In this document: one piece after another, positions 9,735 through 60,646 of the stretch
Layout of the letters: every line of letters begins with the position of its first letter
Position numbering within the stretch: the first letter of the stretch is position 1
NCBI GenBank assembly: GCA_028707495.1
Contig: JAQWAS010000001.1
Location: 48,382 to 112,381 of the forward strand
Direction of reading: 5' to 3'
Length of the DNA: 64,000 nucleotides
Origin: Patescibacteria group bacterium
Lineage (GTDB): Bacteria > Patescibacteriota > Patescibacteriia > UBA2591 > JAQWAS01
Position numbers and translations under genes: made by a program
The notes under the pieces: model-generated
What the model was told of the DNA's origin: nothing
The model's input: the letters and a program-made list of their open reading frames with translations, nothing else
Databases searched by the model: none

Positions 9735-9767
9735 ACAAAATTAATTTTTTAAATTAATGTGATAGAT

Positions 9768-11150: not shown

Positions 11151-11161
11151 ATAATCTATTT

Positions 11162-12916: not shown

Positions 12917-12933
12917 ATTATTTTTTTATAAAA

Positions 12934-13260: not shown

Positions 13261-13267
13261 AAATTTT

Positions 13268-14263: not shown

Positions 14264-14270
14264 GCAAAAA

Positions 14271-14837: not shown

Positions 14838-14863
14838 AGATTAAATATGTTTGACTAAAATTA

Positions 14864-15352
<489 letters not shown>

Positions 15353-15392
15353 TTAATAATTATTAATTAAAAATTTAAATTTATAATATAAA

Positions 15393-17384: not shown

Positions 17385-17412
17385 ATTTTTATAAAAAAAT
17401 AAAAAATAAATC

Positions 17413-17730
17413 TTAAGACTTATTTAATATATAATCTAAAATTATTTTTTGAGCTTGATTATTTTTTTTCGTATCTAATTTTTCAATTTTTTTAAAATCT
17501 TGTTTAAATTTTTCATCTGCCTGTGTAAGACGAATTTGATTGTTGTTTTTAATATCTTTATTGAGTGCGTCAAAATCGTCTTGAATTTCTTTTTCAAGTT
17601 GATCAATTAAGGTTTCTTGCGCCTGTTTGAATTGGGTTATTTTTTGTTGATTTTGATTTTGAGCTAATTGAATTTTTTCTTGAGCTGTTCGTTCTATTTT
17701 TTTTATTTCATCAATTGGGTTTTGAGTCAT
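17413..17730 (-). CDS. V/A-type ATP synthase subunit G/H (peripheral stalk)
   Basis: 105 aa charged coiled-coil protein, first gene of the operon as in Thermus atpG. Confidence 0.6.
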   Translation of the reverse strand: MTQNPIDEIKKIERTAQEKIQLAQNQNQQKITQFKQAQETLIDQLEKEIQDDFDALNKDIKNNNQIRLTQADEKFKQDFKKIEKLDTKKNNQAQKIILDYILNKS

Positions 17731-23900: not shown

Positions 23901-26900
23901 GTGCTTATGCAAGAAATTTAAAAATAATTAATTCTAAATTTATAAATTGCGATGAATATGGGATTTACCTTTATGATGTGGAAGGAAACCAGTTGATTGT
24001 TGAAAATTCAGAATTTAAAAATATCGGAATTAATGGGATTTACACCAATGCAGTGTCAACAGTACAGGTAGGGGGAACTGGAACAACCGACATTGAAAAA
24101 GGAAATTATTTTGAAAATTGCAATAAAATTTATCTTGGAAGAGGTGATACAACTGGAACTGATAATATTCGGCATAATGTTTTAGTTGATACGGGGCTAG
24201 AAACTGAGCTTGAAAATGTTAATTTTATTAATAATAAAATTTTTAATTCTCCTTATTATGGCTTAAATGTTTCTACCTATTCGGCAGGGACTGTGGCGGT
24301 TCAAAATAATACAGTTTGCGGAAGTATCGGAACAAGAGACATATATGATTCGTCTACCAGAGGAACCTATTTAAACAATGCCTGTGGCTCATCAACACCA
24401 AGTGGATTATGTGTTTTTACTGGCAATACTTATTATCGGGATGTAGATGGTGATGGATATGGAAATCCGGACACAACACAAACAAGAGCATGTCCAACTG
24501 TGGGCTATATTTGGAGAGCTGGTGATTGTGATGATACTGATGTAGATGTTAATCCAGAGGGAGAAGAAGTTTGTGATAATAAAGATAATAACTGTGATGG
24601 GACAACAGACAACATACTAGAAGATTGTGGTTCTGGTGTTTGTATTGGAACTAAATTATGCACTGCCGGGATTTGGGGTGTTTGTTCATCTTCGGGAAAT
24701 GATGCAGGAGTTTGTGCAAAATGTAGTGATACTGGAATTGCAGTTTATGACGGAACGCAAAATATAGATTGTGATGATGGAGCATACTGTAACGGTACAG
24801 AAGTTTGTAGTGCAATTTATACATGTACCGCAGGCACACCGATAAATTGTTCAGTTAACAATTTAGACCCAATTGGAATGTGCATTTGGAATCCAGACGG
24901 AAACCCATTAACCTGGGATTATTTTGCTGGTTTTACATCTGCATGCAATGAAACAACCGATTCATGCACTTCAGGAACAGTTGAATTAACACACACTTGC
25001 GACGTAACTACTTGTGGCGCAGAATGTGACGCAACCCACGAATGTGAAGACAGTTCATGCGAAGAAACATACACCGATTATTGTGATGGTTTAAAATTAA
25101 CAGAATACAATTCAAATCTTATTTTAGATTCAATTTTAATTTCTGATTCATGCGAAAATATGTGTGGAGTAGATTGTGGATGTACCGATTGCGACACGGA
25201 TTGTTCTGCGCCAAGTACGAACACATATTGTGTGAAAGACGTGTGTGGCGCAGTTTGCGATTCGCACGATGATTGTGCGCCAACAGAATGTACACACTTA
25301 AGCGGTTGTGTGGGTAATGATTATTATGAATATTCAAACGTGTCCAATGATTGTACGGGTGGTTGTGCTTGCACAAGCAATGACTGTGGAATACCAATAA
25401 TCTATGAGTTTGATTCAAGATGTGTTGAATGTATGATTGATGACGACTGCAATTCTTATGATGCAGACTATTGTACAGGAAATTCAATCATGCATGATGA
25501 GGGTAGATGTTTAGGGTATGTATGCGAAACTGAAACAACAGAAACGCAAAATTGTAATTTATTAAACAATAATTATTGTTTAGGAACAGACATTATGCAA
25601 GATATTTACACATGTTCATTGGCAGTCTGTGTAATTGATGAAACAAATTTAATTGAAAATTGTAATGATGAATTATATTGTAATGGAGCAGAAACATGCG
25701 CAGATGCAATTTGTACCGCAGGCACACCGATAAATTGTTCAGTTAACAATTTAGACCCAATTGGAATGTGCATTTGGAATCCAGACGGAAACCCATTAAC
25801 CTGGGATTATTTTGCTGGTTTTACATCTGCATGCAATGAAACAACCGATTCATGCACTTCAGGAACAGTTGAATTAACACACACTTGCGACGTAACTACT
25901 TGTGGCGCAGAATGTGACGCAACCCACGAATGTGAAGACAGTTCATGCGAAGAAACATACACCGATTATTGTGATGGTTTAAAATTAACAGAATACAATT
26001 CAAATCTTATTTTAGATTCAATTTTAATTTCTGATTCATGCGAAAATATGTGTGGAGTAGATTGTGGATGTACCGATTGCGACACGGATTGTTCTGCGCC
26101 AAGTACGAACACATATTGTGTGAAAGACGTGTGTGGCGCAGTTTGCGATTCGCACGATGATTGTGCGCCAACAGAATGTACACACTTAAGCGGTTGTGTG
26201 GGTAATGATTATTATGAATATTCAAACGTGTCCAATGATTGTACGGGTGGTTGTGCTTGCACAAGCAATGACTGTGGAATACCAATAATCTATGAGTTTG
26301 ATTCAAGATGTGTTGAATGTGTTGATTTAGATGATGAAGAAACTTTCTTGGGTAGGGTTGTCAGATCGGGCGATTCTTATCTTATAAATGATGATATTAT
26401 GTTATGTTCTGGAACATACAATTTTGACGATACGGCATTAATAGCTAATAGCAATAATTTGATTATTGATTGTAATGATGCGGAATTGATTGGACAAGGG
26501 ATAAGGTCTGGATATTATATTGATAATTATTATGGAATTGAAATTAACAATAAAAATAATGTTATTATTAAAAATTGTCATATTGAAAATTTTATAAAGG
26601 GATCAGTAATTAATAATGTTCAGGGTGTTCAGTTTATTGATAATGAATTTATTAACAATACAGATGCGAGTATCTATGGTGAGATGAGTATTAACGATGT
26701 TTTAATTCAAGGAAATTATATTATTAACGATCCCTTGGCTTCATCAACTTATGGGATTCAATTACAAGATGTTTCTAATTCATTAATTATTGAAAACAAC
26801 GTGAGTCAAAATAGTCTTGGTATTTATCTTGGACCTGATTCTGAAAATAATAATATAACAAACAATTATTTAGAAAATAATTTTAATTCAGGAATTTCAT

Positions 26901-28372
26901 TAACTTTAGCAAATAATAATTTAATTAATGGAAATAATTTAGAAAGCAATAGTAAAGGAATCACTACGAGTTCTTGTTCTAATATTGATATTTACAATAA
27001 CACAAATTTATTTAGTGAAGATGTCGGAATTGAGATTTATCAATCGGATCTTTGTGAGGTAATTAATAATACAATTATTGACTCAGGATTTGGAATTAAG
27101 GTGGAAATGGGAAATGATAATTCTATATTAAATAATAATATAGACGGTTCTATGCAAGGTATCAAAATATCAAGAACGACAAATAATAATATTGAAGATA
27201 ATATAATTGATATTAATGCGGGTTATTTAGAAAACGCTTATAGTATTGATGTTAGTGTGGGAACTGATGAATTATACAATAATTGTAATAATATTATAAA
27301 AAGAAATACGGACTCAGCAGGAAAGCAGATTATTTATTTTAAAAATGATGATGATATTGAATCAATTTTACCCATGATAATAGAACCAATTACAGAACTC
27401 ATATTGTGTAATACAGATGATGTGGTTGTTGATGGTATAGAAATTGATGGAAGTAATATCGATGGTAATACTAATGGTGTGATTATTGAAAGCTCAGATA
27501 ATATCATTTTTAGAAATTCAAACATTATTAATAGTTATATTGGAATTAATATTAGAGAGTCTAAATTTAATTATTTTAATTTAAATCAAATTAATAACAA
27601 TAATTTCGGAATAATATTAACAATGTCAAGTGAAAATATAATTGAAAATAATAATATTTGTGACAATGAATTTGTTGATTTATTGATTGGAGAGGCGAGT
27701 AGCTATAACGATGGTGATAATATTTGCAATGACGTTATTTATGGATCTGGATTAGAATTATATAATACTATTGAATGTTCAACTAGTTGTTCAGAGGCAA
27801 GAGTTAAATTTTTACCACCTTTAGAAAAAATAAAAGATATGTTTGGTATTATTGAAAATAAAATTAAAAAAGTTATAGGTATTAAAGTAAAGCTGGGAAA
27901 TGGCAATGAGACTTCCAATACAAAAATAATAGAAGACAATCAAATCGTAGATGAAAATAATGGAAACATAATTAAACCAAAAACAGAAGATAATTTTGTC
28001 ACTATCAAAGAGGGGGTTAAAATAGAAGGGACAGAAATAATTTTTGAACATCAAGATAACAATGTTGTTTTAGATTTAGAAATTAAAGAGACGACAGAAC
28101 AAGAAAAATTATCAGACGGAGTTGTTGTGATTGAAGAAGAAAATAAAGAAATTAAAGAATCTGAAATTGGTTCGATAATTAAAAATAAAAATGTTGAAAT
28201 AATGCCGATAGAAGTTGTTAAAAAAGAAACAGAAATGGTGGTTGGTGAATTTATGTCAAGTTTTAAAAAAGATATTATTGAAATTAAACCAGAAATAACA
28301 TCGACCGACATTTTAATCACCACTAAAGAGGGCGTTAAAAAAATAGAGGATTTGGAAGTCGATAAGAATTAA
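20924..28372 (+). CDS. giant secreted multidomain protein (2482 aa): signal peptide, papain-like C1 cysteine protease, two parallel beta-helix repeat blocks, Cys-rich metal-binding-like modules, duplicated Cys-rich modules, E/K/I-rich C-terminal region
   Basis: C1 catalytic signatures QVGATCWAYA (Gln/Cys), NHAVNLVG (His), YKNSWGPTWGIDGYGY (Asn/Trp); beta-helix repeats such as NNNYIYQNTFQSNTYGIYLTNS; DVDGDGYGNPD..CDDTDVDVNPEGEEVCDNKDNNCDG. Confidence 0.85.
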   Translation: MHQFKIQQEGKNSKRAIIFIVVFTFLNVFLISSISSVLAQTPIQSKNLINGLSFSGDNLKQIASKSIEINKVPGILKYTPKLTNLNQNLNESHLLINNIKIDKQSWSSFKLDDYRNFKEYKIQGRVNLGDLDYKVFDIANLSTVESVVFSGKVTTFPILKPDGQNYGHGFARVILIGQDEKGKIREYAVLDTSHFYADKFDNSKNEYDFNMIGDEALALPGSIKPLHLVVEGSNVEVNFEKIYYSTTKTGLDFKQVLNEQNDAKIRMINEKNERFGYHWEAGNTGISQESYEIKKAYLGDTMTGQYDSVKVYKPMPNAEIIYYSGGVFSFVPMGEMTYSLPSRHLEDSGSAMLPSSPTALPADYDKIEFSWRDAHNQDWTTSVKTQVGATCWAYAATAAHELMVNTYFARHLDKDLSEQQFISRGGTTDPICGGQVNPAEQVAYTRGQFDETCFPATGLSTTPCSPCADWDTRAWKSTTYENSINYRNPVDLMKDLRSNAGMVLGLNEWNHAVNLVGAEIWRDDSSLIMEYKNSWGPTWGIDGYGYLYGPIDIAVFNKWGHPETAATGAPTTQLCTDADSDGYCWWGLGSKPSTGCPTSCAGNSVADCDDSDANKQGLVDGYICADNSDVISSCTTINSPGTYYLSGDMSASGNCININSDNVALTCSGATITGTGTGTGIKIDSQSDVRIYDCNLNNFNIGVEILNSDGVMLADSNVSNSNTGFKINGSENVVEKYGILTSNGKGVELINSNNNYIYQNTFQSNTYGIYLTNSLNNEFQGNVIKTSSNTGFYADSASDNNEVGNLYACSSSVKDINDQGTNDYSITACGSATGTTCDYTCSVGCTNLYWPATYPGGDAYYPERIRETSEEGKHYFIIDAYGGTINLCEDGYYPLDYPTQQILLGTYNVVVDFKNSEFVGKTRDYGDYIFDPGVYPPFGNYPLVREDYDAWFSKGTIKNMKISNVSTGIALMGTSGSTITTWDNIHFENVKVGAYARNLKIINSKFINCDEYGIYLYDVEGNQLIVENSEFKNIGINGIYTNAVSTVQVGGTGTTDIEKGNYFENCNKIYLGRGDTTGTDNIRHNVLVDTGLETELENVNFINNKIFNSPYYGLNVSTYSAGTVAVQNNTVCGSIGTRDIYDSSTRGTYLNNACGSSTPSGLCVFTGNTYYRDVDGDGYGNPDTTQTRACPTVGYIWRAGDCDDTDVDVNPEGEEVCDNKDNNCDGTTDNILEDCGSGVCIGTKLCTAGIWGVCSSSGNDAGVCAKCSDTGIAVYDGTQNIDCDDGAYCNGTEVCSAIYTCTAGTPINCSVNNLDPIGMCIWNPDGNPLTWDYFAGFTSACNETTDSCTSGTVELTHTCDVTTCGAECDATHECEDSSCEETYTDYCDGLKLTEYNSNLILDSILISDSCENMCGVDCGCTDCDTDCSAPSTNTYCVKDVCGAVCDSHDDCAPTECTHLSGCVGNDYYEYSNVSNDCTGGCACTSNDCGIPIIYEFDSRCVECMIDDDCNSYDADYCTGNSIMHDEGRCLGYVCETETTETQNCNLLNNNYCLGTDIMQDIYTCSLAVCVIDETNLIENCNDELYCNGAETCADAICTAGTPINCSVNNLDPIGMCIWNPDGNPLTWDYFAGFTSACNETTDSCTSGTVELTHTCDVTTCGAECDATHECEDSSCEETYTDYCDGLKLTEYNSNLILDSILISDSCENMCGVDCGCTDCDTDCSAPSTNTYCVKDVCGAVCDSHDDCAPTECTHLSGCVGNDYYEYSNVSNDCTGGCACTSNDCGIPIIYEFDSRCVECVDLDDEETFLGRVVRSGDSYLINDDIMLCSGTYNFDDTALIANSNNLIIDCNDAELIGQGIRSGYYIDNYYGIEINNKNNVIIKNCHIENFIKGSVINNVQGVQFIDNEFINNTDASIYGEMSINDVLIQGNYIINDPLASSTYGIQLQDVSNSLIIENNVSQNSLGIYLGPDSENNNITNNYLENNFNSGISLTLANNNLINGNNLESNSKGITTSSCSNIDIYNNTNLFSEDVGIEIYQSDLCEVINNTIIDSGFGIKVEMGNDNSILNNNIDGSMQGIKISRTTNNNIEDNIIDINAGYLENAYSIDVSVGTDELYNNCNNIIKRNTDSAGKQIIYFKNDDDIESILPMIIEPITELILCNTDDVVVDGIEIDGSNIDGNTNGVIIESSDNIIFRNSNIINSYIGINIRESKFNYFNLNQINNNNFGIILTMSSENIIENNNICDNEFVDLLIGEASSYNDGDNICNDVIYGSGLELYNTIECSTSCSEARVKFLPPLEKIKDMFGIIENKIKKVIGIKVKLGNGNETSNTKIIEDNQIVDENNGNIIKPKTEDNFVTIKEGVKIEGTEIIFEHQDNNVVLDLEIKETTEQEKLSDGVVVIEEENKEIKESEIGSIIKNKNVEIMPIEVVKKETEMVVGEFMSSFKKDIIEIKPEITSTDILITTKEGVKKIEDLEVDKN
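24824..25434 (+). repeat. perfect tandem duplication, copy 1 (611 bp, period 888 bp)
   Basis: Identical at every position I compared to 25712-26322; explains the two identical minus-strand phantom ORFs. Confidence 0.85.
25712..26322 (+). repeat. perfect tandem duplication, copy 2
   Basis: See copy 1. Confidence 0.85.
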
Positions 28373-28485
28373 AATTGTAAATAAAGTTTGGCAAGAATTT
28401 AAATTTATGTTAAGATAAAAGTATCAATTTTAAGTGTGTGGAAAAATAAAATTTATACTTATTAACACATATAATTTTAAAAGGG

Positions 28486-37110: not shown

Positions 37111-37833
37111 ATGCCACGATTGAGTGTTATAATTCCGACCTATCAGGATGGTAAATTAATTTCACAAACCATTGAATCAATTTTAGATCAAAATTTTAAA
37201 GATTTTGAAATTATTGTCGTGGTGGATGGTTCGACCGACGATACCTTAGAGAATTTAAAATGTTATAAAAACAAGATCAAGATTTTTTATCAGACCAACC
37301 AAGGCGCACCAGCAGCCCGTAATCGAGGGCTAAGAGAAGCTAATCCAAATTCAGAATTTATTATTTTTTGTGATAGCGATATGATATTATATGAAACAGC
37401 TTTTGAAAAAATGATCCAAATTTTAGAGCAACATCCCGACAAAAGTTATGTTTATAGTTCGTTCAGGTGGGGAAGTAAAAAATTTAAATTGCATGAATTT
37501 GATGCTATGAAATTAAAACAAGAAAATTATATTCACACCAGCTCGATGATCCGTCGTTGTGACTTTTCTCAACAAGGTTGGGACGAAAGTTTAAAAAGAT
37601 TTCAAGATTGGGATTTGTGGTTAACCATGTTAGAGCAAGGTAAAACCGGTAAATGGATTGATGAGATTTTATTTTATTTTTCTCCAGGCAAAAATCGTAT
37701 TAGTTCATGGTTGCCCAAATTTGTTTATAAAATACCTTGGCAGAAAATTGGTTGGGCGCCAACTTTAATCCAAAAATATTTTCAAGCCAAAAAAATTATT
37801 CAAAAGAAGCATACTCTTGACAGAAAAAGTTAG
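37111..37833 (+). CDS. glycosyltransferase family 2
   Basis: LSVIIPTYQDG..IIVVVDGSTDDT and CDSDM DxD motif. Confidence 0.75.
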   Translation: MPRLSVIIPTYQDGKLISQTIESILDQNFKDFEIIVVVDGSTDDTLENLKCYKNKIKIFYQTNQGAPAARNRGLREANPNSEFIIFCDSDMILYETAFEKMIQILEQHPDKSYVYSSFRWGSKKFKLHEFDAMKLKQENYIHTSSMIRRCDFSQQGWDESLKRFQDWDLWLTMLEQGKTGKWIDEILFYFSPGKNRISSWLPKFVYKIPWQKIGWAPTLIQKYFQAKKIIQKKHTLDRKS

Positions 37834-37892
37834 TCATGATAAATTATAAATTAAGATTGATCTTTTTAATTTTTTAAAAAAAGGAGGTTCTA

Positions 37893-38138
37893 TTGGTTCA
37901 CGAACAGGGAATCTTAAATTGGGTAGAAGACATGTTAAGGGGGTTGTTGGATGGTCAATTTTTAGAGGGGTTAAACATGACCTTTGGCCCCCAAGACAAA
38001 GAGCTTATAGCTCAAAGAATTATGGATGAATGGAATATCGATTTTTCCCCAGGTGACATTGTTAATAATGTAACAGTCAGGCTATTAGTTGATATAATTG
38101 AAAAAAAAATAGAAAGGAAAAAAATTGCTGGAAATTAG
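37893..38138 (+). CDS. small ACP-like protein, paralog 1 (81 aa; TTG start with perfect SD)
   Basis: aaggaggt SD; C-terminal DEWNIDFSPGDI..TVRLLVDII resembles ACP helix III-IV (EEFDTEIPDEEAEKITTV..AIDYI); no canonical DSL serine. Confidence 0.45.
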   Translation: MVHEQGILNWVEDMLRGLLDGQFLEGLNMTFGPQDKELIAQRIMDEWNIDFSPGDIVNNVTVRLLVDIIEKKIERKKIAGN

Positions 38139-38364
38139 TTTAATGGATGTTCAAAAAATTCTCATGTTTGTTCTTGGCATTGCTTGTTCTAGAGCTTTAT
38201 CGGCTCAAAGCAATATTTCGGACAAAATGGAAGAAGCGTCTTTTAGAGAAGAAATAGCTAAAAAACTTCAAGATGAATTTAACATCCAAATTAATCCTGA
38301 CGATATAAAAGGTATATCCACTCCAAGAGAGTTAACTAAGTTTTTAATTAACTCCTCAAATTAG
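38125..38364 (+). CDS. small ACP-like protein, paralog 2 (79 aa)
   Basis: DEFNIQINPDDIKGISTPRELTKFLI; overlaps paralog 1 by 14 nt (translational coupling). Confidence 0.45.
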   Translation: MLEISLMDVQKILMFVLGIACSRALSAQSNISDKMEEASFREEIAKKLQDEFNIQINPDDIKGISTPRELTKFLINSSN

Positions 38365-38371
38365 AAGATCT

Positions 38372-38404
38372 TGAAGCTCGTGCATTTGCGCGAGCTTTTT
38401 ATTT
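38372..38404 (+). terminator. rho-independent terminator (aagctcg..cgagctt + T5)
   Basis: 7-bp stem plus TTTTT. Confidence 0.55.
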
Positions 38405-38408
38405 ACTC

Positions 38409-38437
38409 TTGACAAGAAATTAAATATATGCTAGTAT
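38409..38437 (+). promoter_or_regulatory. promoter module copy 2: TTGACA-N17-TAGTAT
   Basis: Near-identical to 8215-8243. Confidence 0.55.
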
Positions 38438-38483
38438 TAAATAATAATAAAAAAATTAAAACTAAAAAATAGAAAGAGGAAGA

Positions 38484-38735
38484 ATGTGTGTTAACAAATT
38501 TAATCCCGCACGAGAAATTCCCAAGATTATTGCTACCACCTTAGGAATTGAAGTTGGTGAAATAGGTTTGGGAACTAAGGTGCAAGATCTAATAGATCAC
38601 GATAATCCGGATTCCAGAGAGCAGTTGATCTGCGCTTTAACATCTGTCAAAGAAGTTAGAGTGAGTAGAGCTGATATTTTTGGACTTAAAACGGTAATAG
38701 AGATAATAAATCTCTTTTATGAAAGAATCTTCTGA
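38484..38735 (+). CDS. small ACP-like protein, paralog 3 (83 aa) with DS motif
   Basis: Good SD aaagagga; NPDSREQLICAL aligns with the ACP DSLxxVEL helix II; own promoter and terminator. Confidence 0.45.
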   Translation: MCVNKFNPAREIPKIIATTLGIEVGEIGLGTKVQDLIDHDNPDSREQLICALTSVKEVRVSRADIFGLKTVIEIINLFYERIF

Positions 38736-38744
38736 TGATGAATT

Positions 38745-38780
38745 TAAACCCCGCCTAGTCGGGGTTTTCCTTTGTTTTAA
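38745..38780 (+). terminator. rho-independent terminator (aaccccg..cggggtt + T)
   Basis: 7-bp stem plus T tract. Confidence 0.6.
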
Positions 38781-38807
38781 ATTTAAAAATAGGTTAAAAT
38801 AGTATAT

Positions 38808-39674
38808 ATGTCTCAACAAATTGATTTATCAATTATTATTGTTAATTGGAATGTTAAGGATTTATTGATCAAATCTTTGCAAAGTATTTTAGATAACACA
38901 CATGATATTAATTATGAAATTATTGTAGTAGATAATGCTTCGCAAGATGGTAGCGCAGATACGATTAAAGAAAAATTTCCGCAAATAAAGTTGATCGTCA
39001 ATCAACAAAATTTGGGTTATGCTCGAGCTAATAACCAGGGCATTCAACAGGCCAGGGGAGAGTATATTTTATTATTAAACCCAGATACATTGATTTTGGA
39101 AAACGCTTTGGTAAAATGTTTAAATTATATTAAAATTAATCCCAATATCGGAGTTTTAGGTTGTCGATTATTAAATCCTGATGGCTCTTTACAGCCGTCT
39201 GTAAGGCGTTTTCCGGGGCTTTGGGATCAAGTTGGTATATTACTCAAATTACATCACATTATGCCAAATTTAGCCGTTTTTAAACGTTATTTAGCAAATG
39301 ATTTAGATTATAGTCGTAGCCAGTCGGTTGAGCAGGTGATGGGTGCTTTTTTCTTAATTCCACACAAAATTATAAATCAAGTTGGTTTATTAGACGAAAT
39401 TTTTTTTATCTGGTTTGAGGAAGTAGATTATTGTCAACGAGTTAAGCAAGCTGGCCATCAAGTCTATTATTTTAATCAAGCGCAAATTATTCATCATTTT
39501 GGTCAAAGCTTTAAACAAAGATTGAGTTTAGACAAACAAAAAATTTTTAATCAAAGTTTGAGTTATTATTTTAAAAAACACCATTCTAAATTAGAATATA
39601 TAATTATTAATTTATTGCGACCCGTAAGTTTGGCGTTAGCTGGTTTAAGTCAGATTTTTAATTTTAAACAATGA
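38808..39674 (+). CDS. glycosyltransferase family 2
   Basis: LSIIIVNWN..VVDNASQDGS; LLLNPDT; EEVDYCQRV. Confidence 0.75.
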   Translation: MSQQIDLSIIIVNWNVKDLLIKSLQSILDNTHDINYEIIVVDNASQDGSADTIKEKFPQIKLIVNQQNLGYARANNQGIQQARGEYILLLNPDTLILENALVKCLNYIKINPNIGVLGCRLLNPDGSLQPSVRRFPGLWDQVGILLKLHHIMPNLAVFKRYLANDLDYSRSQSVEQVMGAFFLIPHKIINQVGLLDEIFFIWFEEVDYCQRVKQAGHQVYYFNQAQIIHHFGQSFKQRLSLDKQKIFNQSLSYYFKKHHSKLEYIIINLLRPVSLALAGLSQIFNFKQ

Positions 39675-41158
39675 AATTATTAACCCAAAAAACAAACTAT
39701 TTAAAAATTGGCACGATTTTTTTATTTTTATTATTTTTAGAAATAACATCGTTTGTAGGTTATTTAAATCCTGAAGTTAATGTTTTAGTTTTTAGTTTAA
39801 TTTTATTTTTTACTTTGATTTTAAGCTGGCAAAAATTAGAATACGGAATTTACATTATTTTAGCTGAGTTATTTATTGGTTCAAAGGGTTATTTATTTTT
39901 TTTACCAGTTGGTGAAAAAATGATTTCCTTGCGGATTGCTTTATTTGTGATAATGATGTTGGTTTGGGGATTAAAACTAATTATAGTTTGGTTTAAGAAA
40001 CATTCTTGGCCTGATAATTTTTTTGAAATTAGAAAATCTAAATTTTTTAAATATTATTTAATTTTGGCTTTATGTTTAATCTGGGGTGTAGTTTGGGGGT
40101 TAATTAGAAAAAATAGTTTAAGCAATCTATTTTTTGATTTTAATGGTTGGTTATATTTTATTTTAGTTATACCATTTTTTGATATTATTAAAACTGAACA
40201 ACATATTCAAAATATATTTAAAATTTTATCAGCTAGCTTGTTGATAGTTTGTTTTAAAACGGTATTTTTATTCTGGGTTTTTACTCATAACTTAGTTTGC
40301 TGGATGCAACCATTATATCGTTGGATGAGCGACAATTATATTGGTGAAATTAGTCTGATGAGTTATGATTTTTATCGTGTTTTTATTCAATCACAAATTT
40401 TTGTTTTAGTTGGTTTTTTTGTATTTTTGGTTGTTAGTTTGCGTTTTTTATTTAAACAAAACAACGGCTGGTTTAAAAATAAAAATTTGGCTTACGTTCT
40501 AACTGTTTTAAGCAGTTTAACTTTATTGATTAGTTTTTCGCGCTCTTTTTGGGTGGGTCTATTGGCTGGTATAATTTTATTGTTAATTTTAAGTAAAAAA
40601 GCGTGGCCACAGATTAAAATTAGTTTAGTAAAAATAGTTTTAGTTTTAATTTTAATTGCAGTTAGTAGTGCAGTTTTGGCCTTAGGTCTAGCTAATTTGC
40701 CCAAACCTTCTGGCGAGGTGGTTTCCCTGACCAGTTTAGTCGAGAAAAGACTAACCCAAAACGAGGTGGCTGGTATGAGCCGTTTAAATTTAATTCAACC
40801 ATTATTAAAAGCTATCGCTAAACATCCGGTGATTGGTTCGGGTTTTGGGCAGACGGTAACTTATCAATCCTTAGATCCTAGAAATTTAAAAGATAATTCT
40901 GAAGGTTGGTACACAACTTTCGCTTTCGAATGGGGTTATTTTGATATTTGGTTAAAAATTGGTTTGGTTGGATTGATGGTTTATTTATTTTTAATCTGGC
41001 AGATTATAAAAAGTGGCTGGCAAAATAGGTCAATTTTAAATATAAGTTTAATTCTAGGTTTAGTCGCGGTTTTAGTTACTAGTTTTTTTAGTCCGTATCT
41101 AAATCATCCCTTGGGGATTGGTTATTTAATTTTATGTTCAGTTATTTTTGAAAAATGA
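39671..41158 (+). CDS. Wzy / O-antigen-ligase-like polytopic membrane protein
   Basis: 495 aa, about 10-12 TM, large periplasmic loop with RSFWVGLLAG. Confidence 0.5.
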   Translation: MKLLTQKTNYLKIGTIFLFLLFLEITSFVGYLNPEVNVLVFSLILFFTLILSWQKLEYGIYIILAELFIGSKGYLFFLPVGEKMISLRIALFVIMMLVWGLKLIIVWFKKHSWPDNFFEIRKSKFFKYYLILALCLIWGVVWGLIRKNSLSNLFFDFNGWLYFILVIPFFDIIKTEQHIQNIFKILSASLLIVCFKTVFLFWVFTHNLVCWMQPLYRWMSDNYIGEISLMSYDFYRVFIQSQIFVLVGFFVFLVVSLRFLFKQNNGWFKNKNLAYVLTVLSSLTLLISFSRSFWVGLLAGIILLLILSKKAWPQIKISLVKIVLVLILIAVSSAVLALGLANLPKPSGEVVSLTSLVEKRLTQNEVAGMSRLNLIQPLLKAIAKHPVIGSGFGQTVTYQSLDPRNLKDNSEGWYTTFAFEWGYFDIWLKIGLVGLMVYLFLIWQIIKSGWQNRSILNISLILGLVAVLVTSFFSPYLNHPLGIGYLILCSVIFEK

Positions 41159-41976
41159 AATTACCAAATTTAACATCAAGATTTTATATTTTTTTTAGTC
41201 ATAAAGTTTTCAAAAAATGGAAATCAACCCTACGGGGTTTATATTATAGTTTAACTAAGTTGATTTATTATGGTACTTTTGATATGTTTGCAGCAGTGGA
41301 TATAGAGACCATTAGTAGTTGTAATTTAAAATGCCATTATTGTCCGACAGCTTATTATGATCGTGGTCAGCATTTAATGTCAGAAAATTTGTTCAAAAAA
41401 ATTATTGATGAATTGGCTGAAATTAGGTTTAGGGGTAGGATTTCACCACATTTTTATGGCGAACCATTATTAGATGATAGATTGTCTAAATTATTATTAT
41501 ATGCTCGACAAAAATTACCACAGGCCGATATTATTATTCATACCAATGGTTTGTTATTAACTAAAAAAAAGTTTGATGAATTTTTAAAAAATAAAGTTGA
41601 TGGATTTGTAATTACCCTGCACAATGATTTAGTTAAAAATAAAATGGATCAATTTTTTAAATTATTAAATAAAAAAGAAAAACGTAAAATCAGAATTTTA
41701 AAGCCCGAAAAAATGATTTTATTTAATCGCGGTGGATTGGTTAAAATAACAAGAGCACATAAAATAAAAAGATGTTTTTATATACGCGATGAAATAGCCA
41801 TTAATTATGGCGGTGAAGTGGTTTGTACTAATGATTTTTTGGCTAAATATAGTTTTGGTAATGTTAAAAATCAATCATTGACGGATATTTGGCATAAACC
41901 CAAATTTAAACAAATCAGACGAAATCTTTTAAAAGGAAAACCGGCCATGAATATTTGTCGAAATTGTTTGAAATAA
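41155..41976 (+). CDS. radical SAM protein with SPASM/twitch-like C-terminal Cys cluster
   Basis: CNLKCHYCP (CxxxCxxC) and C-terminal C..C..CRNC. Confidence 0.65.
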   Translation: MKLPNLTSRFYIFFSHKVFKKWKSTLRGLYYSLTKLIYYGTFDMFAAVDIETISSCNLKCHYCPTAYYDRGQHLMSENLFKKIIDELAEIRFRGRISPHFYGEPLLDDRLSKLLLYARQKLPQADIIIHTNGLLLTKKKFDEFLKNKVDGFVITLHNDLVKNKMDQFFKLLNKKEKRKIRILKPEKMILFNRGGLVKITRAHKIKRCFYIRDEIAINYGGEVVCTNDFLAKYSFGNVKNQSLTDIWHKPKFKQIRRNLLKGKPAMNICRNCLK

Positions 41977-45854: not shown

Positions 45855-46862
45855 ATGTTTAGTAAAAAAATAGGTATTGATTTGGGGACAACTAACACTT
45901 TGGTCCATATTCCCAAACGTGGGGTGGCAATTAACGAACCATCGGTCATTGCTATTTCTAAAATTGATAAAAAAATATTAGCCGTAGGCGAAGAAGCTAA
46001 AGACATGTTGGGTCGCACACCAGATTCAATTATTGCTTCTCAACCCATGAAAGATGGAGTAATCGCCGATTATCGAGCCACTGAAGCTATGTTAAAATAT
46101 TTTATTAATAAAACTTTAACCGGTTTTCGTTTTTTTCGTCCCGAAGTGATGGTCTGTACACCCGGCGGTGCGACTTCAACTGAAAAACGGGCGGTGATTG
46201 ATGCGGCCATGGCGGCGGGGGCTAAAGCGGCTTATATTATTAAAGAACCAATTGCGGCAGCCATTGGGGCTTCTATTCCAATTGGATCAGCTTCAGGACA
46301 TATGATTGTAAATATGGGTGGTGGAACTTGCGAAATTGCTGTTATTTCTTTGGGCGGTATTGTAGCTAGCAGCTCAATTCGAGTCGCTGGTAATAAATTT
46401 GATATGGCTATTTTAGAACACGTGCGTCGTCGCTATAATTTAGATATTGGCGAAGCGACCGCTGAACAAGTTAAAATTAATATTGGTTCAGCTCTTTTCT
46501 TAGAAAATAAATTAAAAATGCGAGTCAGGGGTCGCAATACTATTACGGGTTTGCCGTATACAGTGACAATTACTTCTAATGATGTAACTGAAGCTATTCA
46601 AATAGAATTAGAAAACATTATTTCTGCTATCAAAATGGTTCTACGGGATACGCCTCCAGAACTTTCGGCTGACGTGATGGATAAGGGTATTGTTTTAGCT
46701 GGTGGTTCATCACAGCTACGCAAATTAGATAAATTATTTTCTCAGGCTTTAAATATTCCAGTTTATATTGCGGATGAACCGATTTTATGTGTCATTCGAG
46801 GAATTGGTTTAGCCTTAGATAATTTGGATTCATACAAGAGAAGTTTGTTATCTAATAAATAA
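45855..46862 (+). CDS. actin-like MreB paralog (first copy)
   Basis: IGIDLGTTNTLV; GGGTCEIAVISLGG; full-length MreB alignment. Confidence 0.8.
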   Translation: MFSKKIGIDLGTTNTLVHIPKRGVAINEPSVIAISKIDKKILAVGEEAKDMLGRTPDSIIASQPMKDGVIADYRATEAMLKYFINKTLTGFRFFRPEVMVCTPGGATSTEKRAVIDAAMAAGAKAAYIIKEPIAAAIGASIPIGSASGHMIVNMGGGTCEIAVISLGGIVASSSIRVAGNKFDMAILEHVRRRYNLDIGEATAEQVKINIGSALFLENKLKMRVRGRNTITGLPYTVTITSNDVTEAIQIELENIISAIKMVLRDTPPELSADVMDKGIVLAGGSSQLRKLDKLFSQALNIPVYIADEPILCVIRGIGLALDNLDSYKRSLLSNK

Positions 46863-50162: not shown

Positions 50163-51153
50163 TGTTTTAGACACATACATTTTGCACCCTCAAACCAAGG
50201 GCTTGATTAGGAGTTAGACCGTTTAAGGCACAATGTTCTAAATCATTGTAATACATATTCCAAAGTTTAATCTTGTATTTTAATTCTTCAAAACTATTAA
50301 ATTTAACCTGGTTATAGAATTGTTCTTGATCGGTACGATGACTACGCTCTACGTGTCCATTTTGAGCAGGCTTACCAGGATCAATCAGATAATGTTGTAT
50401 GTTTAATCTTTGACATTCTAAATCAAGTATGTGTAGGCGTGGATTAAGTGGATGGATACTTTTAATATAGCCCGTATAACGATTAGTGAAGATCGAAGCA
50501 TTGTCAGTCTTGATAGCTAAGATTTTATGAGGGAAGTTTTGAATAACTTGATTAAAAAAATCTAGACTTAAATGATTGCCTTGGGCTTCATAGATTTTAA
50601 TATAGCGCCAACGTGTAGCACAGTCAATAGCTGTAAACTGGTAAAAACGCCTAGAACCTAGTAATTGAGGCACATATTTAACGTCTATCTCAACTAAGTC
50701 ACCTGGTTGTAGTTGTGCTTTAACATACTTGTATTTAACTTTACGCACACGATATTTACGTGTTAAACCCTCTGTTTTGATGATTTTACCAATAGTGCGA
50801 TGATGAAGATGAATCCCTTGTTTATTTAAGCGCCAGGCTAATTTTTGAGCGCACAGACCTGTTTCTTGTCTTAACTCAATAACTTGTTCTTTGATTCGAA
50901 TAGACGTCTCTTGGGGATGGCTTTTAGGGCGAGTTGACTTGTTGACTAGACCAGCTAAACCAGACTGTTTAAAGTTAGCTAACCAATACTTAAGAGTCCT
51001 TTCACAGAAGGGACAAACTTGAACCATATTTTTAATGGTAATTTTACCATCAAGGATTGGTTTAATCCAACGAAGTTTTTCTTCGATTGTTGATTTGGGC
51101 ATAGTTTTAGACATGCCCCTAGTTTAGCAAAAAGTGCAATATGTGTGTACACA
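50160..51153 (-). mobile_element. IS481-family insertion sequence (about 1 kb) with imperfect terminal inverted repeats
   Basis: TIR candidates tgttttagacacatacattttgcac (left) and reverse complement of gtgcaatatgtgtgtacaca (right); transposase stop codon lies inside the IR as usual for IS481. Confidence 0.6.
50167..51114 (-). CDS. DDE transposase, IS481 family (HTH + integrase core)
   Basis: N-terminal HTH; rve core with D..D..E (IDVKYV, KTDNASIF, HVERSHRT). Confidence 0.75.
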   Translation of the reverse strand: MSKTMPKSTIEEKLRWIKPILDGKITIKNMVQVCPFCERTLKYWLANFKQSGLAGLVNKSTRPKSHPQETSIRIKEQVIELRQETGLCAQKLAWRLNKQGIHLHHRTIGKIIKTEGLTRKYRVRKVKYKYVKAQLQPGDLVEIDVKYVPQLLGSRRFYQFTAIDCATRWRYIKIYEAQGNHLSLDFFNQVIQNFPHKILAIKTDNASIFTNRYTGYIKSIHPLNPRLHILDLECQRLNIQHYLIDPGKPAQNGHVERSHRTDQEQFYNQVKFNSFEELKYKIKLWNMYYNDLEHCALNGLTPNQALGLRVQNVCV

Positions 51154-51166
51154 TTACCTTATCCCC

Positions 51167-51195
51167 TTGACAAGAAAAATAATTTATGATAACAT
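51167..51195 (+). promoter_or_regulatory. promoter module copy 3: TTGACA-N17-TAACAT, directly outside IS end
   Basis: Same module as 8215, 38409, 52130. Confidence 0.45.
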
Positions 51196-52127: not shown

Positions 52128-52129
52128 TC

Positions 52130-52158
52130 TTGACAAGAAAAATAATTTAAAGTATAAT
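52130..52158 (+). promoter_or_regulatory. promoter module copy 4: TTGACA-N17-TATAAT upstream of typA
   Basis: Perfect consensus hexamers. Confidence 0.6.
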
Positions 52159-59578: not shown

Positions 59579-60646
59579 ATGTTTAAAAAGTTATTGGGTC
59601 ATTTTATTCGAGCACACGACATGGGGATTGATATGGGAACAGTTAATACTTTAGTTTATGTCAGAGATAAAGGAATTGTAATTAATGAGCCATCAGTCGT
59701 GGCAATTAATACTAAATCAGATCAAATTTTAGCAATTGGCGATGAAGCTAAAAAAATGTTAGGGAAGACGCCAGAACATATTTTAGCGACTCGACCGTTA
59801 GAACGTGGAGTAATTTCTGATTTTGAGGCTACTGAAAAAATGATTCATTATTTTATTGATAAAGTTCATCAAACTAAAAATTTATTTTTACCTCACCCAC
59901 GCATTGTAACGGGTTTACCATTAGACGTGACGGAGGTTGAAAAAAAGGCAGTTGAAGATGCTATTTTGCAGGCCGGAGCTCAACGTGTTTATTTGGTCGA
60001 AGAGCCTTTGGCAGCAGCGGTTGGCGCTCATTTACCAATTGAACAGCCGACCGGCTATATGATTGTTGACTTAGGGGGTGGCACAACTAAAATTGCGGTG
60101 ATTTCTTTGGGAAGTATTGTTAGTCAAAAAAGTATTGATGTCGCTGGTCAAGAATTGAACAAAGATATTGTTCAGTATGCCCAAGACGAATTAAATATTT
60201 TATTAGGCGAAGAAACGGCTGAAAGATTAAAGATTAAAATTGGTTCGGCGGTGGTAGAAAAAGAGTTAAAAGAATTAAAAGTTAGGGGTCGTGATTTAAA
60301 TACTGGCTTACCACGAGAGATAGTTTTAAATGAGGGACAGGTACTAGAAGCCATTAATCGATCACTAAGAATTATAGTTGATAATATAAAATACGTTTTA
60401 GAGGTAACACCACCAGAATTAGTGTCAGATATTTATGAACGGGGACTTTTCTTGAGTGGTGGCGGTGCTTTATTAAGAAACATTGACCAATATATTAGTC
60501 AACAAATTAATATTCAAGTAAATTTAATTGACGATCCTTTAACGGCAGTTGTGCGTGGCACGGGAGCTATTTTAGAAAATTTAGAAACCTTAAAAGAGGT
60601 TTTGATTCCATCTGCCAAGGAAGAAGCAAAAGAAAACAAAATTTAA
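59579..60646 (+). CDS. mreB: rod-shape-determining protein MreB (second copy, with mreCD-mrdA)
   Basis: GIDMGTVNTLVYV; DLGGGTTKIAVISLG. Confidence 0.9.
   Translation: MFKKLLGHFIRAHDMGIDMGTVNTLVYVRDKGIVINEPSVVAINTKSDQILAIGDEAKKMLGKTPEHILATRPLERGVISDFEATEKMIHYFIDKVHQTKNLFLPHPRIVTGLPLDVTEVEKKAVEDAILQAGAQRVYLVEEPLAAAVGAHLPIEQPTGYMIVDLGGGTTKIAVISLGSIVSQKSIDVAGQELNKDIVQYAQDELNILLGEETAERLKIKIGSAVVEKELKELKVRGRDLNTGLPREIVLNEGQVLEAINRSLRIIVDNIKYVLEVTPPELVSDIYERGLFLSGGGALLRNIDQYISQQINIQVNLIDDPLTAVVRGTGAILENLETLKEVLIPSAKEEAKENKI

What the first reader, a model, noticed from the sequence alone, without database searches (positions are those of the whole stretch)
37893..38735. Three tandem paralogous ACP-like small proteins embedded in the surface-glycan locus
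Three ORFs of 81, 79 and 83 aa are present. The first two overlap by 14 nt and share one strong SD; the third has its own promoter module, a good SD and its own terminator. All three end with a pattern (DEWNIDFSPGDI..TVRLLVDII; DEFNIQINPDDIKGISTPRELTKFLI; ..VRVSRADIFGLKTVIEII) that aligns with helices III-IV of acyl/peptidyl/D-alanyl carrier proteins. Only paralog 3 has a DS(R) motif at the expected phosphopantetheine site; paralogs 1 and 2 lack the serine. Carrier-protein-like triplets between Wzx/GT genes and a Wzy-like/radical-SAM block suggest either acyl or amino-acyl decoration of the glycan, or a novel small-protein function such as precursor peptides or regulators.
Basis: partly seen in the sequence, partly recalled or inferred. 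Interest (0 to 1): 0.55.

Follow-up and report, generated by a model that had tools for sequence, protein, structure and literature searches.

The report
Three orphan carrier-protein-like genes in glycan locus
Three small genes inserted into a cell-surface sugar-polymer gene cluster of an uncultured ultra-small (Patescibacteria) bacterium encode very divergent copies of the acyl-carrier-protein fold, at least one of which has lost the serine that normally carries the cofactor, so they probably do something other than classical acyl shuttling.

Summary

ORF1 has Pro33 at the phosphopantetheine position. ORF2 has a serine (EEASF) one residue out of register. The ORF3 "DSR" serine lies 2-3 residues after the canonical column.

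The trio has no orthologue among 1.84 billion representative proteins. In six syntenic loci from related metagenomic Patescibacteria the flanking genes stay adjacent in the four that carry both, so the trio is a lineage-specific insertion. The nearby radical-SAM gene is also lineage-specific. It is a BtrN-type sugar dehydrogenase, not a peptide maturase. No PPTase, ligase or acyltransferase lies in about 76 kb.

Best reading (about 0.4): cofactor-independent or degenerate ACP-fold adaptors of glycan assembly. The main rival (about 0.3) is classical carriers with partners encoded elsewhere. The finding is a new variant of a known kind, of moderate interest.

The parts
37817..37845 (+). Promoter-like site (TTGACA, 17 nt, TAAATT, with a TG extension) inside the 3' end of the upstream GT2 gene. 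It is the putative promoter of ORF1-ORF2.
   Evidence: This is a consensus match only.
37883..37887 (+). Strong Shine-Dalgarno sequence GGAGG, 5 nt upstream of the ORF1 TTG start.
   Evidence: Sequence.
37893..38138 (+). ORF1, 81 aa (NCBI PHS07_00430, 'hypothetical protein'). It has the carrier-protein fold with Pro33 (codon 37989-37991) where the phosphopantetheine serine should be.
38125..38364 (+). ORF2, 79 aa from the TTG start. An alternative ATG at 38143 gives 73 aa, and NCBI aa as 'phosphopantetheine-binding protein'. It is ACP-like, with an atypical 'EEASF' serine (Ser39, codon 38239-38241) and an unusually hydrophobic helix I (ILMFVLGIA).
   Evidence: PF00550, 21.7 bits against a cut-off of 20.8; 17 of 18 PDB hits are ACPs.
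38373..38398 (+). Intrinsic-terminator-like hairpin (11 bp stem) plus T-run, ending the ORF1-ORF2 unit.
38408..38437 (+). Copy of a conserved promoter module, CTTGACAAGAAAnnnAATnTATGnTA (extended -10), driving ORF3. The same module precedes the ribosomal-protein cluster and typA/bipA.
   Evidence: (5 copies in the window, 0.02 expected).
38484..38735 (+). ORF3, 83 aa (NCBI PHS07_00440, 'hypothetical protein'), preceded by SD GAGG at 38476-38479. It is ACP-like over its full length. Its 'DSR' serine (Ser44, codon 38613-38615) lies 2-3 residues downstream of the canonical serine column.
   Evidence: (low-confidence model, pLDDT 52.6).
38746..38767 (+). Intrinsic-terminator-like hairpin plus T-run, ending the ORF3 unit.
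41155..41976 (+). BtrN-like Twitch-domain radical SAM dehydrogenase. It is the second lineage-specific insertion in the same glycan locus. Any link to the trio is only circumstantial.
   Evidence: (PDB 4m7t BtrN, E 1.6e-36, residues 43-271; absent from all 80 related loci).

Best explanation
Shown:
- The three ORFs are real genes encoding very divergent proteins of the acyl/peptidyl-carrier-protein four-helix fold.
- They form two transcription units, ORF1-ORF2 and a monocistronic ORF3 behind a housekeeping-type promoter module.
- Together they make a roughly 975-bp insertion, specific to this lineage, between two glycosyltransferase genes of an otherwise conserved locus: Wzx-GT4-GT2-GT2-Wzy-GT2-GT2-DUF4012-MreB.
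- ORF1 has proline at the phosphopantetheine position and cannot be a cofactor-bearing carrier.

Inferred:
- ORF2 ('ASF', register off by one) and ORF3 ('DSR', off by two to three, with no hydrophobic residue after the serine) have degenerate sites.
- The host belongs to a phylum reported to lack fatty-acid synthesis.
- No PPTase, loading enzyme or acyltransferase is nearby.

The most likely mechanism is therefore that these proteins work without, or largely without, the prosthetic group. They would act as small acidic protein-binding subunits or regulators of the membrane glycan-assembly or decoration machinery encoded around them. Two precedents exist. Ser-less mitochondrial ACP binds Isd11-Nfs1 in Plasmodium. 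AcpM sits on the cytoplasmic face of the mycobacterial arabinosyltransferases EmbA/B/C.

Confidence is about 0.9 for the fold and gene reality, about 0.85 for the insertion, and about 0.4 for the cofactor-independent adaptor mechanism.
For: Coding and signals.

Fold:
- PF00550 scores above its cut-off for ORF2, and NCBIfam gives weak ACP hits for ORF2 and ORF3.
- 17 of the 18 PDB sequence hits of ORF2 are ACPs.
- The trio profile hits PDB ACPs over their full length at E 4e-5.
- hhalign gives 98.6% probability.

Serine site: ORF1 helix II starts at P33, 14 residues before W47, which is exactly the Ser36-to-Phe50 spacing of E. coli ACP (that spacing is recalled from memory).

Orphan status:
- There were only self hits in the word-indexed 5.8-billion-protein database.
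- The exhaustive HMMER search of 1.84 billion representatives returned 15 hits, none better than generic ACPs at 41 bits or less, apart from the trio itself and two multi-carrier megaproteins.

Insertion: in the four syntenic loci that carry both flanking GT2 genes (L023, L018, L042, L016) those genes are adjacent, and no ACP-like ORF occurs in any of the 80 loci.

No partner enzymes.

Precedents:
- PMC8547962 describes a Ser-to-Phe mACP that is essential and binds Isd11-Nfs1 after loss of FASII and the PPTase.
- PMC7305291 describes AcpM bound to EmbB through helices 2 and 3.
- PMC12455944 states that Patescibacteria lack fatty-acid biosynthesis.
- A Ca. Woykebacteria ACP has Thr in place of Ser in a NusB-ACP-RNase III context, and another ACP-like protein has Pro at the site.
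Against: - No binding partner is identified, and nothing tests binding.
- ORF2 and ORF3 do keep a serine near the N-terminus of helix II. A one-residue register shift could be tolerated.
- Only about 76 kb was inspected: the 64-kb window of a 159.7-kb contig, plus Logan contigs reaching about 10 kb beyond its downstream end and 1.7 kb beyond its upstream end. The genome is of unknown total size, so a PPTase or ligase may lie elsewhere.
- Variable slots of glycan loci usually hold decoration genes, which fits a true carrier role just as well.
- With no orthologues, no conservation or covariation test of any surface is possible.
- The ORF3 model is low-confidence, and ORF2 was not modelled.
Confidence: 0.4

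Rival explanations
1. Classical carrier proteins. ORF3, ORF2 or both would be phosphopantetheinylated and loaded with an acyl or aminoacyl group, which is then transferred onto the surface glycan. This resembles DltC, NodF, RkpF or BtrI. The PPTase, loading enzyme and transferase would be encoded elsewhere in the genome, and ORF1 would be a degenerate paralogue.
For: - The fold is ACP, and ORF2 passes PF00550.
- A serine lies near the start of helix II in ORF2 and ORF3.
- The genes sit in a variable 'accessory' slot of a glycan locus. Relatives carry a methyltransferase-like gene in another slot, and this genome carries a BtrN-like sugar dehydrogenase.
- The butirosin cluster also combines BtrN with the ACP BtrI. 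This rests on my own knowledge, with BtrI's role in the AHBA side chain cited in PMC11405602.
- ORF3 has a strong promoter.
Against: - No PPTase, AMP-ligase, ATP-grasp enzyme, MBOAT or acyltransferase lies in about 76 kb.
- The serine contexts 'ASF' and 'DSR' are atypical and off-register.
- Helix II is not acidic (sequence).
- The phylum lacks fatty-acid synthesis (PMC12455944).
- A working carrier must keep interfaces with three partner enzymes, which is hard to reconcile with there being no detectable orthologue in 1.84 billion representatives.
Confidence: 0.3
2. A function unrelated to the glycan. The ORF1-ORF2 pair and ORF3 would be a small selfish or accessory module (for example toxin-antitoxin-like, or a secreted or membrane small protein) that happened to land in an intergenic gap. 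The hydrophobic N-terminus of ORF2 would act as a signal or anchor.
For: - The insertion is compact, with its own promoters and terminators, and the two small genes overlap.
- It is lineage-specific.
- ORF2 has a 9-residue stretch, ILMFVLGIA, with Kyte-Doolittle 2.99, followed by an ALSA-Q motif.
- An ENA contig places an IS481-like transposase end directly upstream of the ORF3 promoter, so the site is recombinationally active.
Against: - There is no PADLOC, PHROG, phage or plasmid similarity.
- The hydrophobic stretch aligns with ACP helix I.
- The n-region has no net positive charge, and the 19-residue hydropathy is marginal (1.45-1.65).
- I know of no toxin-antitoxin family with an ACP fold.
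Confidence: 0.1
3. Decaying relics. An acquired ACP gene was triplicated and is now drifting without function, with the ORFs still open by chance or because the event is recent.
For: The three sequences are extremely divergent, the serine is lost or shifted, and there are no orthologues.
Against: - All three frames are intact, with SDs, promoters and terminators, in a streamlined genome.
- Three open frames of this length are not expected by chance.
- ORF1, the member without serine, gives a confident, well-packed ACP model.
- ORF3 carries a promoter module shared with housekeeping genes.
Confidence: 0.07
4. Precursor peptides or scaffold proteins modified by the neighbouring radical SAM/SPASM enzyme, as in a RiPP system.
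For: Small ORFs lie 2.4 kb from a gene with Pfam Radical_SAM and SPASM hits. Both are lineage-specific additions to the locus.
Against: - The enzyme is a near-full-length homologue of BtrN, a small-molecule aminocyclitol dehydrogenase (E 1.6e-36). Its hits to peptide-maturase models are far below their cut-offs (PMC10337720).
- The small proteins are folded four-helix domains with no Cys-rich or repeat core (0, 1 and 2 Cys).
- Two conserved backbone genes separate them from the enzyme.
Confidence: 0.03

Closest known systems
Type II acyl carrier proteins / free-standing peptidyl carrier proteins (Pfam PF00550 PP-binding)
   Same: Size is about 80 aa. The topology is the four-helix bundle: helix I, long loop, helix II, short helix III, helix IV. 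The C-terminal 'DEF-N-I-x-I/F-x-P-x-D-I...T-V' pattern is shared. There are full-length profile matches and structural matches.
   Different: The (D/G/H)-S-(L/I/M) site is absent in ORF1 (Pro) and atypical or out of register in ORF2 ('ASF') and ORF3 ('DSR'). pI is 4.7-5.3 against about 4.0-4.4 for the ACPs retrieved. No FAS, PKS, NRPS or PPTase genes are nearby. Only ORF2 reaches the Pfam threshold, and it does so with its C-terminal half only.
Ser-less mitochondrial ACP of Plasmodium falciparum (and Toxoplasma homologues)
   Same: The ACP fold is retained after loss of the fatty-acid pathway, with the cofactor serine replaced (Phe there, Pro in ORF1). That protein is essential as a binding subunit (PMC8547962).
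   Different: It is eukaryotic and organellar, and it binds LYR protein Isd11 for Fe-S biogenesis. No LYR-type partner or Fe-S assembly genes occur here. The present genes are a tandem trio in a glycan locus.
AcpM bound to mycobacterial arabinosyltransferases EmbA/EmbB/EmbC
   Same: An ACP acts as a stoichiometric cytoplasmic subunit of a polytopic membrane enzyme that builds a cell-envelope polysaccharide. Contact is through helices 2 and 3 (PMC7305291; PDB titles).
   Different: AcpM is the organism's canonical, cofactor-bearing meromycolate ACP and is not encoded in the emb locus. Here the proteins are dedicated and divergent, and any interaction with Wzy, Wzx or the glycosyltransferases is untested.
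Carrier proteins of envelope-glycan or aminoglycoside decoration (DltC; NodF/RkpF; BtrI of the butirosin cluster)
   Same: A small carrier protein is encoded among glycan or aminoglycoside biosynthesis genes. The butirosin cluster also contains BtrN, the closest solved relative of the locus's radical SAM enzyme (PMC11405602; the remainder is from my own knowledge).
   Different: Those systems always co-encode the loading enzyme and transferase: DltA/DltB/DltD, NodE, or BtrJ/BtrK/BtrH. None is present here. No NCBIfam DltC-type model was hit.
ACP-like proteins with substituted serine in other uncultured bacteria (P0008, Ca. Woykebacteria, 'DADT'; P0009, 'EIEPHQ')
   Same: These are about 80-aa PP-binding-fold proteins with Thr or Pro at the serine column. 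One comes from another Patescibacteria lineage.
   Different: They share only about 37 bits with the trio profile. They are single-copy genes in housekeeping or other contexts (NusB-ACP-RNase III-S16; next to a Glucosamine_iso gene), not in a glycan locus.

Membership tests
Acyl/peptidyl carrier protein (PF00550 PP-binding) | Four-helix-bundle carrier fold | tested here: met
Acyl/peptidyl carrier protein (PF00550 PP-binding) | Sequence match to the family model above the curated threshold | tested here: inconclusive
   ORF2 scores 21.7 bits against a cut-off of 20.8, covering only its C-terminal half. ORF1 and ORF3 have no Pfam hit. The trio profile against PDB ACPs gives E 4e-5. hhalign gives 98.6%, though the ACP set used had been chosen by the trio profile.
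Acyl/peptidyl carrier protein (PF00550 PP-binding) | Conserved serine at the N-terminus of helix II in a (D/G/H)-S-(L/I/M) motif | tested here: not met
   The feature is not met for ORF1, which has Pro33 at the exact spacing. It is inconclusive for the other two. ORF2 Ser39 in 'EEASF' is aligned to the serine by two alignments but is one residue out of register. ORF3 Ser44 in 'DSR' falls 2-3 residues after the serine column, and Asn41 aligns with the serine.
Acyl/peptidyl carrier protein (PF00550 PP-binding) | Post-translational 4'-phosphopantetheinylation by a PPTase | not testable with these tools
   No PPTase-like ORF occurs in the window plus about 12 kb of flanks. This rests on Pfam scans, gene tables, and phmmer with AcpS/Sfp sequences recalled from memory.
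D-alanyl carrier protein system (DltC with DltA/B/D) | DltC-type sequence and neighbouring DltA ligase, DltB MBOAT and DltD | tested here: not met
   There is no DltC model hit in NCBIfam. The structural match to DltC is only generic (rank 29). No AMP-binding, MBOAT or DltD genes occur in the window.
RiPP precursor plus radical SAM/SPASM maturase | A peptide-modifying rSAM maturase adjacent to short precursor(s) with a leader/core organisation | tested here: not met
   The rSAM is a BtrN homologue (E 1.6e-36, residues 43-271 aligned to 23-255 of the 270-residue chain). Maturase models score far below their cut-offs. The small proteins are folded ACP-like domains.
Cofactor-independent (Ser-less) ACP adaptors, e.g. 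Plasmodium mACP | ACP fold with the serine substituted, in a lineage lacking FASII | tested here: met
   The feature is met for ORF1 only (Pro33). Loss of fatty-acid synthesis at phylum level is taken from PMC12455944 and was not verified for this genome.
Cofactor-independent (Ser-less) ACP adaptors, e.g. Plasmodium mACP | Stable binding to a defined partner protein (LYR protein or membrane enzyme) | not testable with these tools

The most novel reading that the evidence does not exclude
The trio would represent a previously unrecognised use of the carrier-protein fold in bacteria. These would be dedicated, cofactor-free (or non-canonically modified) ACP-like subunits that dock onto and tune a Wzx/Wzy-type surface-glycan assembly line in a fatty-acid-synthesis-deficient Patescibacterium. 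They would have arisen by acquisition and tandem triplication, and they evolve so fast that no orthologue is detectable in 15 billion proteins.
Probability: 0.25. Interest if true: 0.65.

Novelty: new variant of a known kind. Interest (0 to 1): 0.4.

Why it matters
Patescibacteria are reported to lack fatty-acid synthesis, so carrier-protein genes in them need an explanation. A tandem trio with a lost or degenerate cofactor site, inserted in the cell-surface glycan locus, would be a bacterial counterpart of the Ser-less organellar ACPs. It would add to the emerging picture of ACPs as structural partners of envelope-building membrane enzymes, as with AcpM-Emb.

If instead ORF2 or ORF3 is modified, the locus points to an acyl or aminoacyl decoration of a CPR surface glycan made with unrecognised partner enzymes. 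Either outcome concerns the cell surface, which mediates the episymbiotic lifestyle of these organisms.

The practical value is limited for now. The organism is uncultured, the genes are orphans, and no partner is identified.

Tried and rejected
- Word-indexed homology searches of each ORF returned only the proteins themselves. In hindsight one of the three searches would have been better spent on a neighbouring gene.
- The exhaustive profile search found only generic ACPs.
- A GTDB genome scan with the radical SAM protein gave only distant rSAMs at about 30% identity. There was no synteny, and the source genome is not a species representative there. No ACP-like ORFs lie near those rSAMs.
- Exact-protein look-ups returned only identical assemblies of the same population, so no dN/dS was possible.
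- tblastn against phage and plasmid collections gave no match. PHROGs and PADLOC gave nothing significant.
- Rfam on 37500-39000 gave nothing near a gathering score. The weak hits sit on the terminator hairpin.
- The RiPP-precursor idea was rejected after the BtrN match.
- The DltC idea was rejected for lack of Dlt partners.
- The signal-peptide reading of the ORF2 N-terminus is judged weak.
- A search for terminal inverted repeats of the IS481-like element found nothing convincing.
- The afdb50 fold library was unavailable.
- The ORF3 structure prediction was low-confidence, so the structural position of its serine remains open.
Full report
**1. What is there.** The window comes from a Patescibacteria-group MAG (locus tags PHS07_00430 to 00440, contig 159,733 bp).

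Between the stop of a GT2 glycosyltransferase gene (37111-37833) and the start of the next GT2 gene (38808-39674) lie three same-strand ORFs:
- ORF1, 37893-38138 (81 aa, TTG start).
- ORF2, 38125-38364 (79 aa, TTG start).
- ORF3, 38484-38735 (83 aa, ATG start).

Three ORFs of at least 79 codons on one strand of a 974-bp, 32% GC stretch never occurred in 5000 Markov-1 random sequences. Codon-position composition is coding-like.

ORF1 has a strong GGAGG 5 nt upstream of its start. The TTG start of ORF2 overlaps ORF1 by 14 nt and has its own weaker AAAGGAA. An ATG at 38143 is an alternative start. The 66-aa NCBI call would cut off helix I.

Promoter-like sites (37817-37845 and 38409-38437) and terminator-like hairpins (38373-38398 and 38746-38767) delimit two units, ORF1-ORF2 and ORF3. 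The ORF3 promoter is one of five copies of a conserved module, CTTGACAAGAAAnnnAATnTATGnTA. The module also precedes the ribosomal-protein cluster and typA/bipA, which suggests strong expression. No Rfam family explains the region.

**2. They have the carrier-protein fold.**
- ORF2 just passes Pfam PP-binding (21.7 bits against a cut-off of 20.8, C-terminal half only).
- NCBIfam gives weak ACP hits for ORF2 and ORF3.
- 17 of the 18 PDB sequence hits of ORF2 are ACPs (E 0.05-1). The best hit of ORF3 is a full-length ACP alignment.
- ORF1 has no direct hit but is significantly similar to ORF2 (38% over 34 aa, E 7e-6).
- A profile of the three hits PDB ACPs end to end (8gsa, E 4e-5; P. falciparum ACP, E 8e-4), and the list is dominated by carrier proteins.
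- hhalign of the trio against nine ACPs gives 98.6% probability over 79 columns. That ACP set had been picked by the trio profile, so this test is partly circular.
- AlphaFold2 gives a confident ORF1 model (pLDDT 84.2, pTM 0.73) with helices at 2-18, 33-47, a short turn at 53-55, and 62-80.
- The ORF3 model is poor (pLDDT 52.6), yet its top 49 matches are all ACPs.

**3. The cofactor site.**

In ORF1, helix II begins at Pro33, exactly 14 residues before Trp47. That equals the Ser36-to-Phe50 spacing of E. coli ACP, a figure I recall from memory. MAFFT shows a 9-residue deletion of the loop that normally carries the D-S-L motif. ORF1 therefore cannot carry phosphopantetheine.

ORF2 does have a serine (Ser39, 'EEASF'). 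Two HMMER alignments place it on the cofactor serine at the cost of a one-residue gap in helix II, and a third aligns Ala38 instead.

The 'DSR' serine of ORF3 (Ser44) falls 2-3 residues after the serine column in both independent alignments, with Asn41 under the serine. It is followed by Arg rather than the usual hydrophobic residue.

One site is lost and two are atypical and unresolved.

pI values are 4.7-5.3, against about 4.0-4.4 for eight of the nine ACPs retrieved (the ninth is 5.0). Helix II carries mixed charges.

**4. Orphans.** Each protein finds only itself in the 5.8-billion-cluster word-indexed database. The exhaustive HMMER search of 1.84 billion representatives with the trio profile returned 15 hits at E of 1e-3 or better:
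- the three proteins themselves;
- three multi-domain megaproteins;
- nine ordinary ACPs of about 80 aa, at 41 bits or less.

There is no similarity in the phage or plasmid collections, PHROGs or PADLOC.

Two of the retrieved ACP-like proteins also lack the serine. P0008 is 'acyl carrier protein [Candidatus Woykebacteria]' with the motif DADT, and it sits in a NusB-ACP-RNase III-S16 context. P0009 has EIEPHQ. Substituted ACPs therefore exist elsewhere, including in another CPR lineage.

**5. Context and synteny.** The neighbours are:
- Wzx-type flippase (34516).
- GT4 (35973).
- GT2 (37111).
- The trio.
- GT2 (38808).
- Wzy_C / O-antigen-ligase-like (39671).
- Radical SAM (41155).
- Two further GT2 genes (42045 and 43051).
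- DUF4012 (43867).
- MreB (45855).

Anchoring on MreB retrieved 80 metagenomic loci with 55-76% MreB identity. Six of them share the backbone Wzx-GT4-GT2a-GT2b-Wzy-(GT2c)-GT2d-(DUF4012)-MreB-...-GT4b (L023, L018, L042, L016, L024, L021). L023 is the closest, with orthologue identities of 43-60%.

In the four of these that carry orthologues of both flanking genes (L023, L018, L042, L016), GT2a and GT2b are directly adjacent. The intergenic gap is 55 bp in L023, and the genes abut or overlap in L018, L042 and L016. L024 has no GT2a orthologue, and L021 starts downstream of this point. None of the 9410 six-frame ORFs of the 80 loci resembles the trio or ACPs. The trio is therefore a lineage-specific insertion of about 975 bp.

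The radical SAM gene is likewise absent from all 80 loci. L018 and L042 instead carry a methyltransferase-like gene between GT2b and Wzy. The backbone thus has variable 'accessory' slots.

The radical SAM protein is a near-full-length homologue of BtrN (PDB 4m7t, E 1.6e-36, residues 43-271). [quoted passage not shown] Peptide-maturase models score far below their cut-offs. This removes the basis for a RiPP reading.

**6. Partner enzymes.** Pfam scans of essentially all ORFs of at least 100 aa in the window, apart from part of the ribosomal-protein cluster, were examined. So were the gene tables of Logan contigs, which also cover the ribosomal cluster and reach about 10 kb beyond the downstream end of the window and 1.7 kb beyond the upstream end. 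None shows a PPTase, adenylate-forming ligase, ATP-grasp enzyme, MBOAT, acyltransferase or FAS gene.

A six-frame search with an ACP HMM finds only the trio. AcpS and Sfp sequences recalled from memory find nothing. The rest of the genome could not be reached.

**7. Mechanism.** The shown steps are that the genes are real, that they have the ACP fold, that they are a lineage-specific insertion, that ORF1 has no cofactor site, and that no partner enzymes are nearby.

My preferred model (about 0.4) is an inference from those facts. The proteins would act without, or largely without, phosphopantetheine, as small acidic binding subunits or regulators of the glycan-assembly or decoration machinery. 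Three lines support it. Patescibacteria are reported to lack fatty-acid synthesis (PMC12455944). Plasmodium kept a Ser-to-Phe ACP as an essential Isd11-Nfs1 subunit after losing FASII and its PPTase (PMC8547962). AcpM is a stoichiometric cytoplasmic partner of the polysaccharide-building membrane enzyme EmbB, contacting it through helices 2 and 3 (PMC7305291).

The main rival (about 0.3) is that ORF2, ORF3 or both are true carriers for an acyl or aminoacyl decoration, with partners encoded elsewhere. This fits the 'accessory slot' position and the retained serines. It is weakened by the atypical sites, the missing partners and the extreme divergence.

Minor rivals are an unrelated selfish or secreted module (0.1), decaying relics (0.07) and rSAM substrates (0.03).

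**8. Comparison and novelty.** The proteins work like, and descend from, carrier proteins. Strict membership of the functional family, meaning a serine-borne cofactor, fails for ORF1 and is unresolved for ORF2 and ORF3. The finding is a new variant of a known kind: an orphan, tandemly triplicated, partly Ser-less ACP-fold set in a CPR surface-glycan locus.

Interest is moderate (0.4). A specialist would find the combination unexpected. But no partner or phenotype is in reach, and there are no orthologues, so evolutionary tests are not possible.

**9. Limits.**
- ORF2 was never modelled, and the ORF3 model is poor.
- No complex predictions were possible.
- The ACP profile used for register analysis was built from sequences selected by the trio.
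- E. coli and B. subtilis ACP, AcpS and Sfp sequences came from memory and serve only as leads.
- The phylum-level claim about fatty-acid synthesis was not verified for this genome.

Noticed in passing
window 8214-8239, 28387-28412, 38408-38433, 51166-51191, 52129-52154 (+ strand); 25-mer at 8182-8206 and 51134-51158: A conserved promoter module, CTTGACAAGAAAnnnAATnTATGnTA, occurs five times where 0.02 are expected. It lies upstream of ORF3, the ribosomal-protein cluster, typA/bipA and two unknown genes. Two copies are preceded, 7 nt upstream, by an identical 25-mer GTGCAATATGTGTGTACACATTACC containing the palindrome TGTGTACACA. That 25-mer could be an operator or the end of a mobile element.
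   Followed up: partly
L014 (ENA ERZ27247363 k141_2278239, 832 bp) versus window 38401-39140 and 51067-51177: In this independent assembly, the ORF3 promoter, ORF3 and the start of GT2b are 100% identical to the window. The sequence directly upstream is different. It is the N-terminal end of an IS481-like transposase plus the 25-mer (96% to window 51067-51177), not ORF2 and its terminator. This is either an IS insertion or recombinant variant at this site, or an assembly chimera. No terminal inverted repeats were found for the window's IS copy at 50167-51114.
   Followed up: partly
window 41155-41976: The 'radical SAM/SPASM' gene is a near-full-length BtrN homologue, i.e. a Twitch-domain radical SAM dehydrogenase (PDB 4m7t, E 1.6e-36). 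It is absent from all 80 related loci, which suggests an anaerobic sugar or cyclitol oxidation step specific to this lineage's glycan.
   Followed up: partly
L018 4700-5644 and the equivalent gap in L042: Related Patescibacteria carry a 314-aa gene between the GT2b and Wzy orthologues. By its sequence motifs it looks like a class I SAM methyltransferase with an N-terminal zinc-ribbon, though it was not scanned against any family library. It shows that the conserved glycan backbone has lineage-specific accessory slots.
   Followed up: no
L099 8001-8246 (P0008, Ca. Woykebacteria); L100 8001-8252 (P0009, GCA_964421565.1): Other ACP-like proteins have the cofactor serine replaced. One has Thr ('DADT') and lies between nusB and rnc-rpsP-trmD in a CPR genome. 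The other has Pro ('EIEPHQ') and lies next to a Glucosamine_iso-family gene. Ser-less ACPs may be more common in reduced genomes than is appreciated.
   Followed up: partly
window 20924-28372: A giant 2482-aa ORF carries multiple right-handed beta-helix/NosD repeats and a MopE-like metal-binding motif. It is probably a surface protein.
   Followed up: no
window 45855-46862 and 59579-60646; 60674-63942: There are two MreB paralogues. The second is followed by MreC, a 184-aa unknown (possibly MreD) and a PBP2-type transpeptidase. The first is embedded at the end of the glycan locus, an arrangement conserved in relatives.
   Followed up: no
window 9123-17730 (- strand): A V/A-type ATPase operon (subunits D, B, A, F, C, E, K, I) in a Patescibacteria genome.
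   Followed up: no
window 38143-38200 (ORF2 N-terminus): Helix I of ORF2 is unusually hydrophobic (ILMFVLGIA, Kyte-Doolittle 2.99 over 9 residues) and is followed by ALSA-Q. This superficially resembles a signal peptide, but there is no positively charged n-region, and the significance is unresolved.
   Followed up: partly
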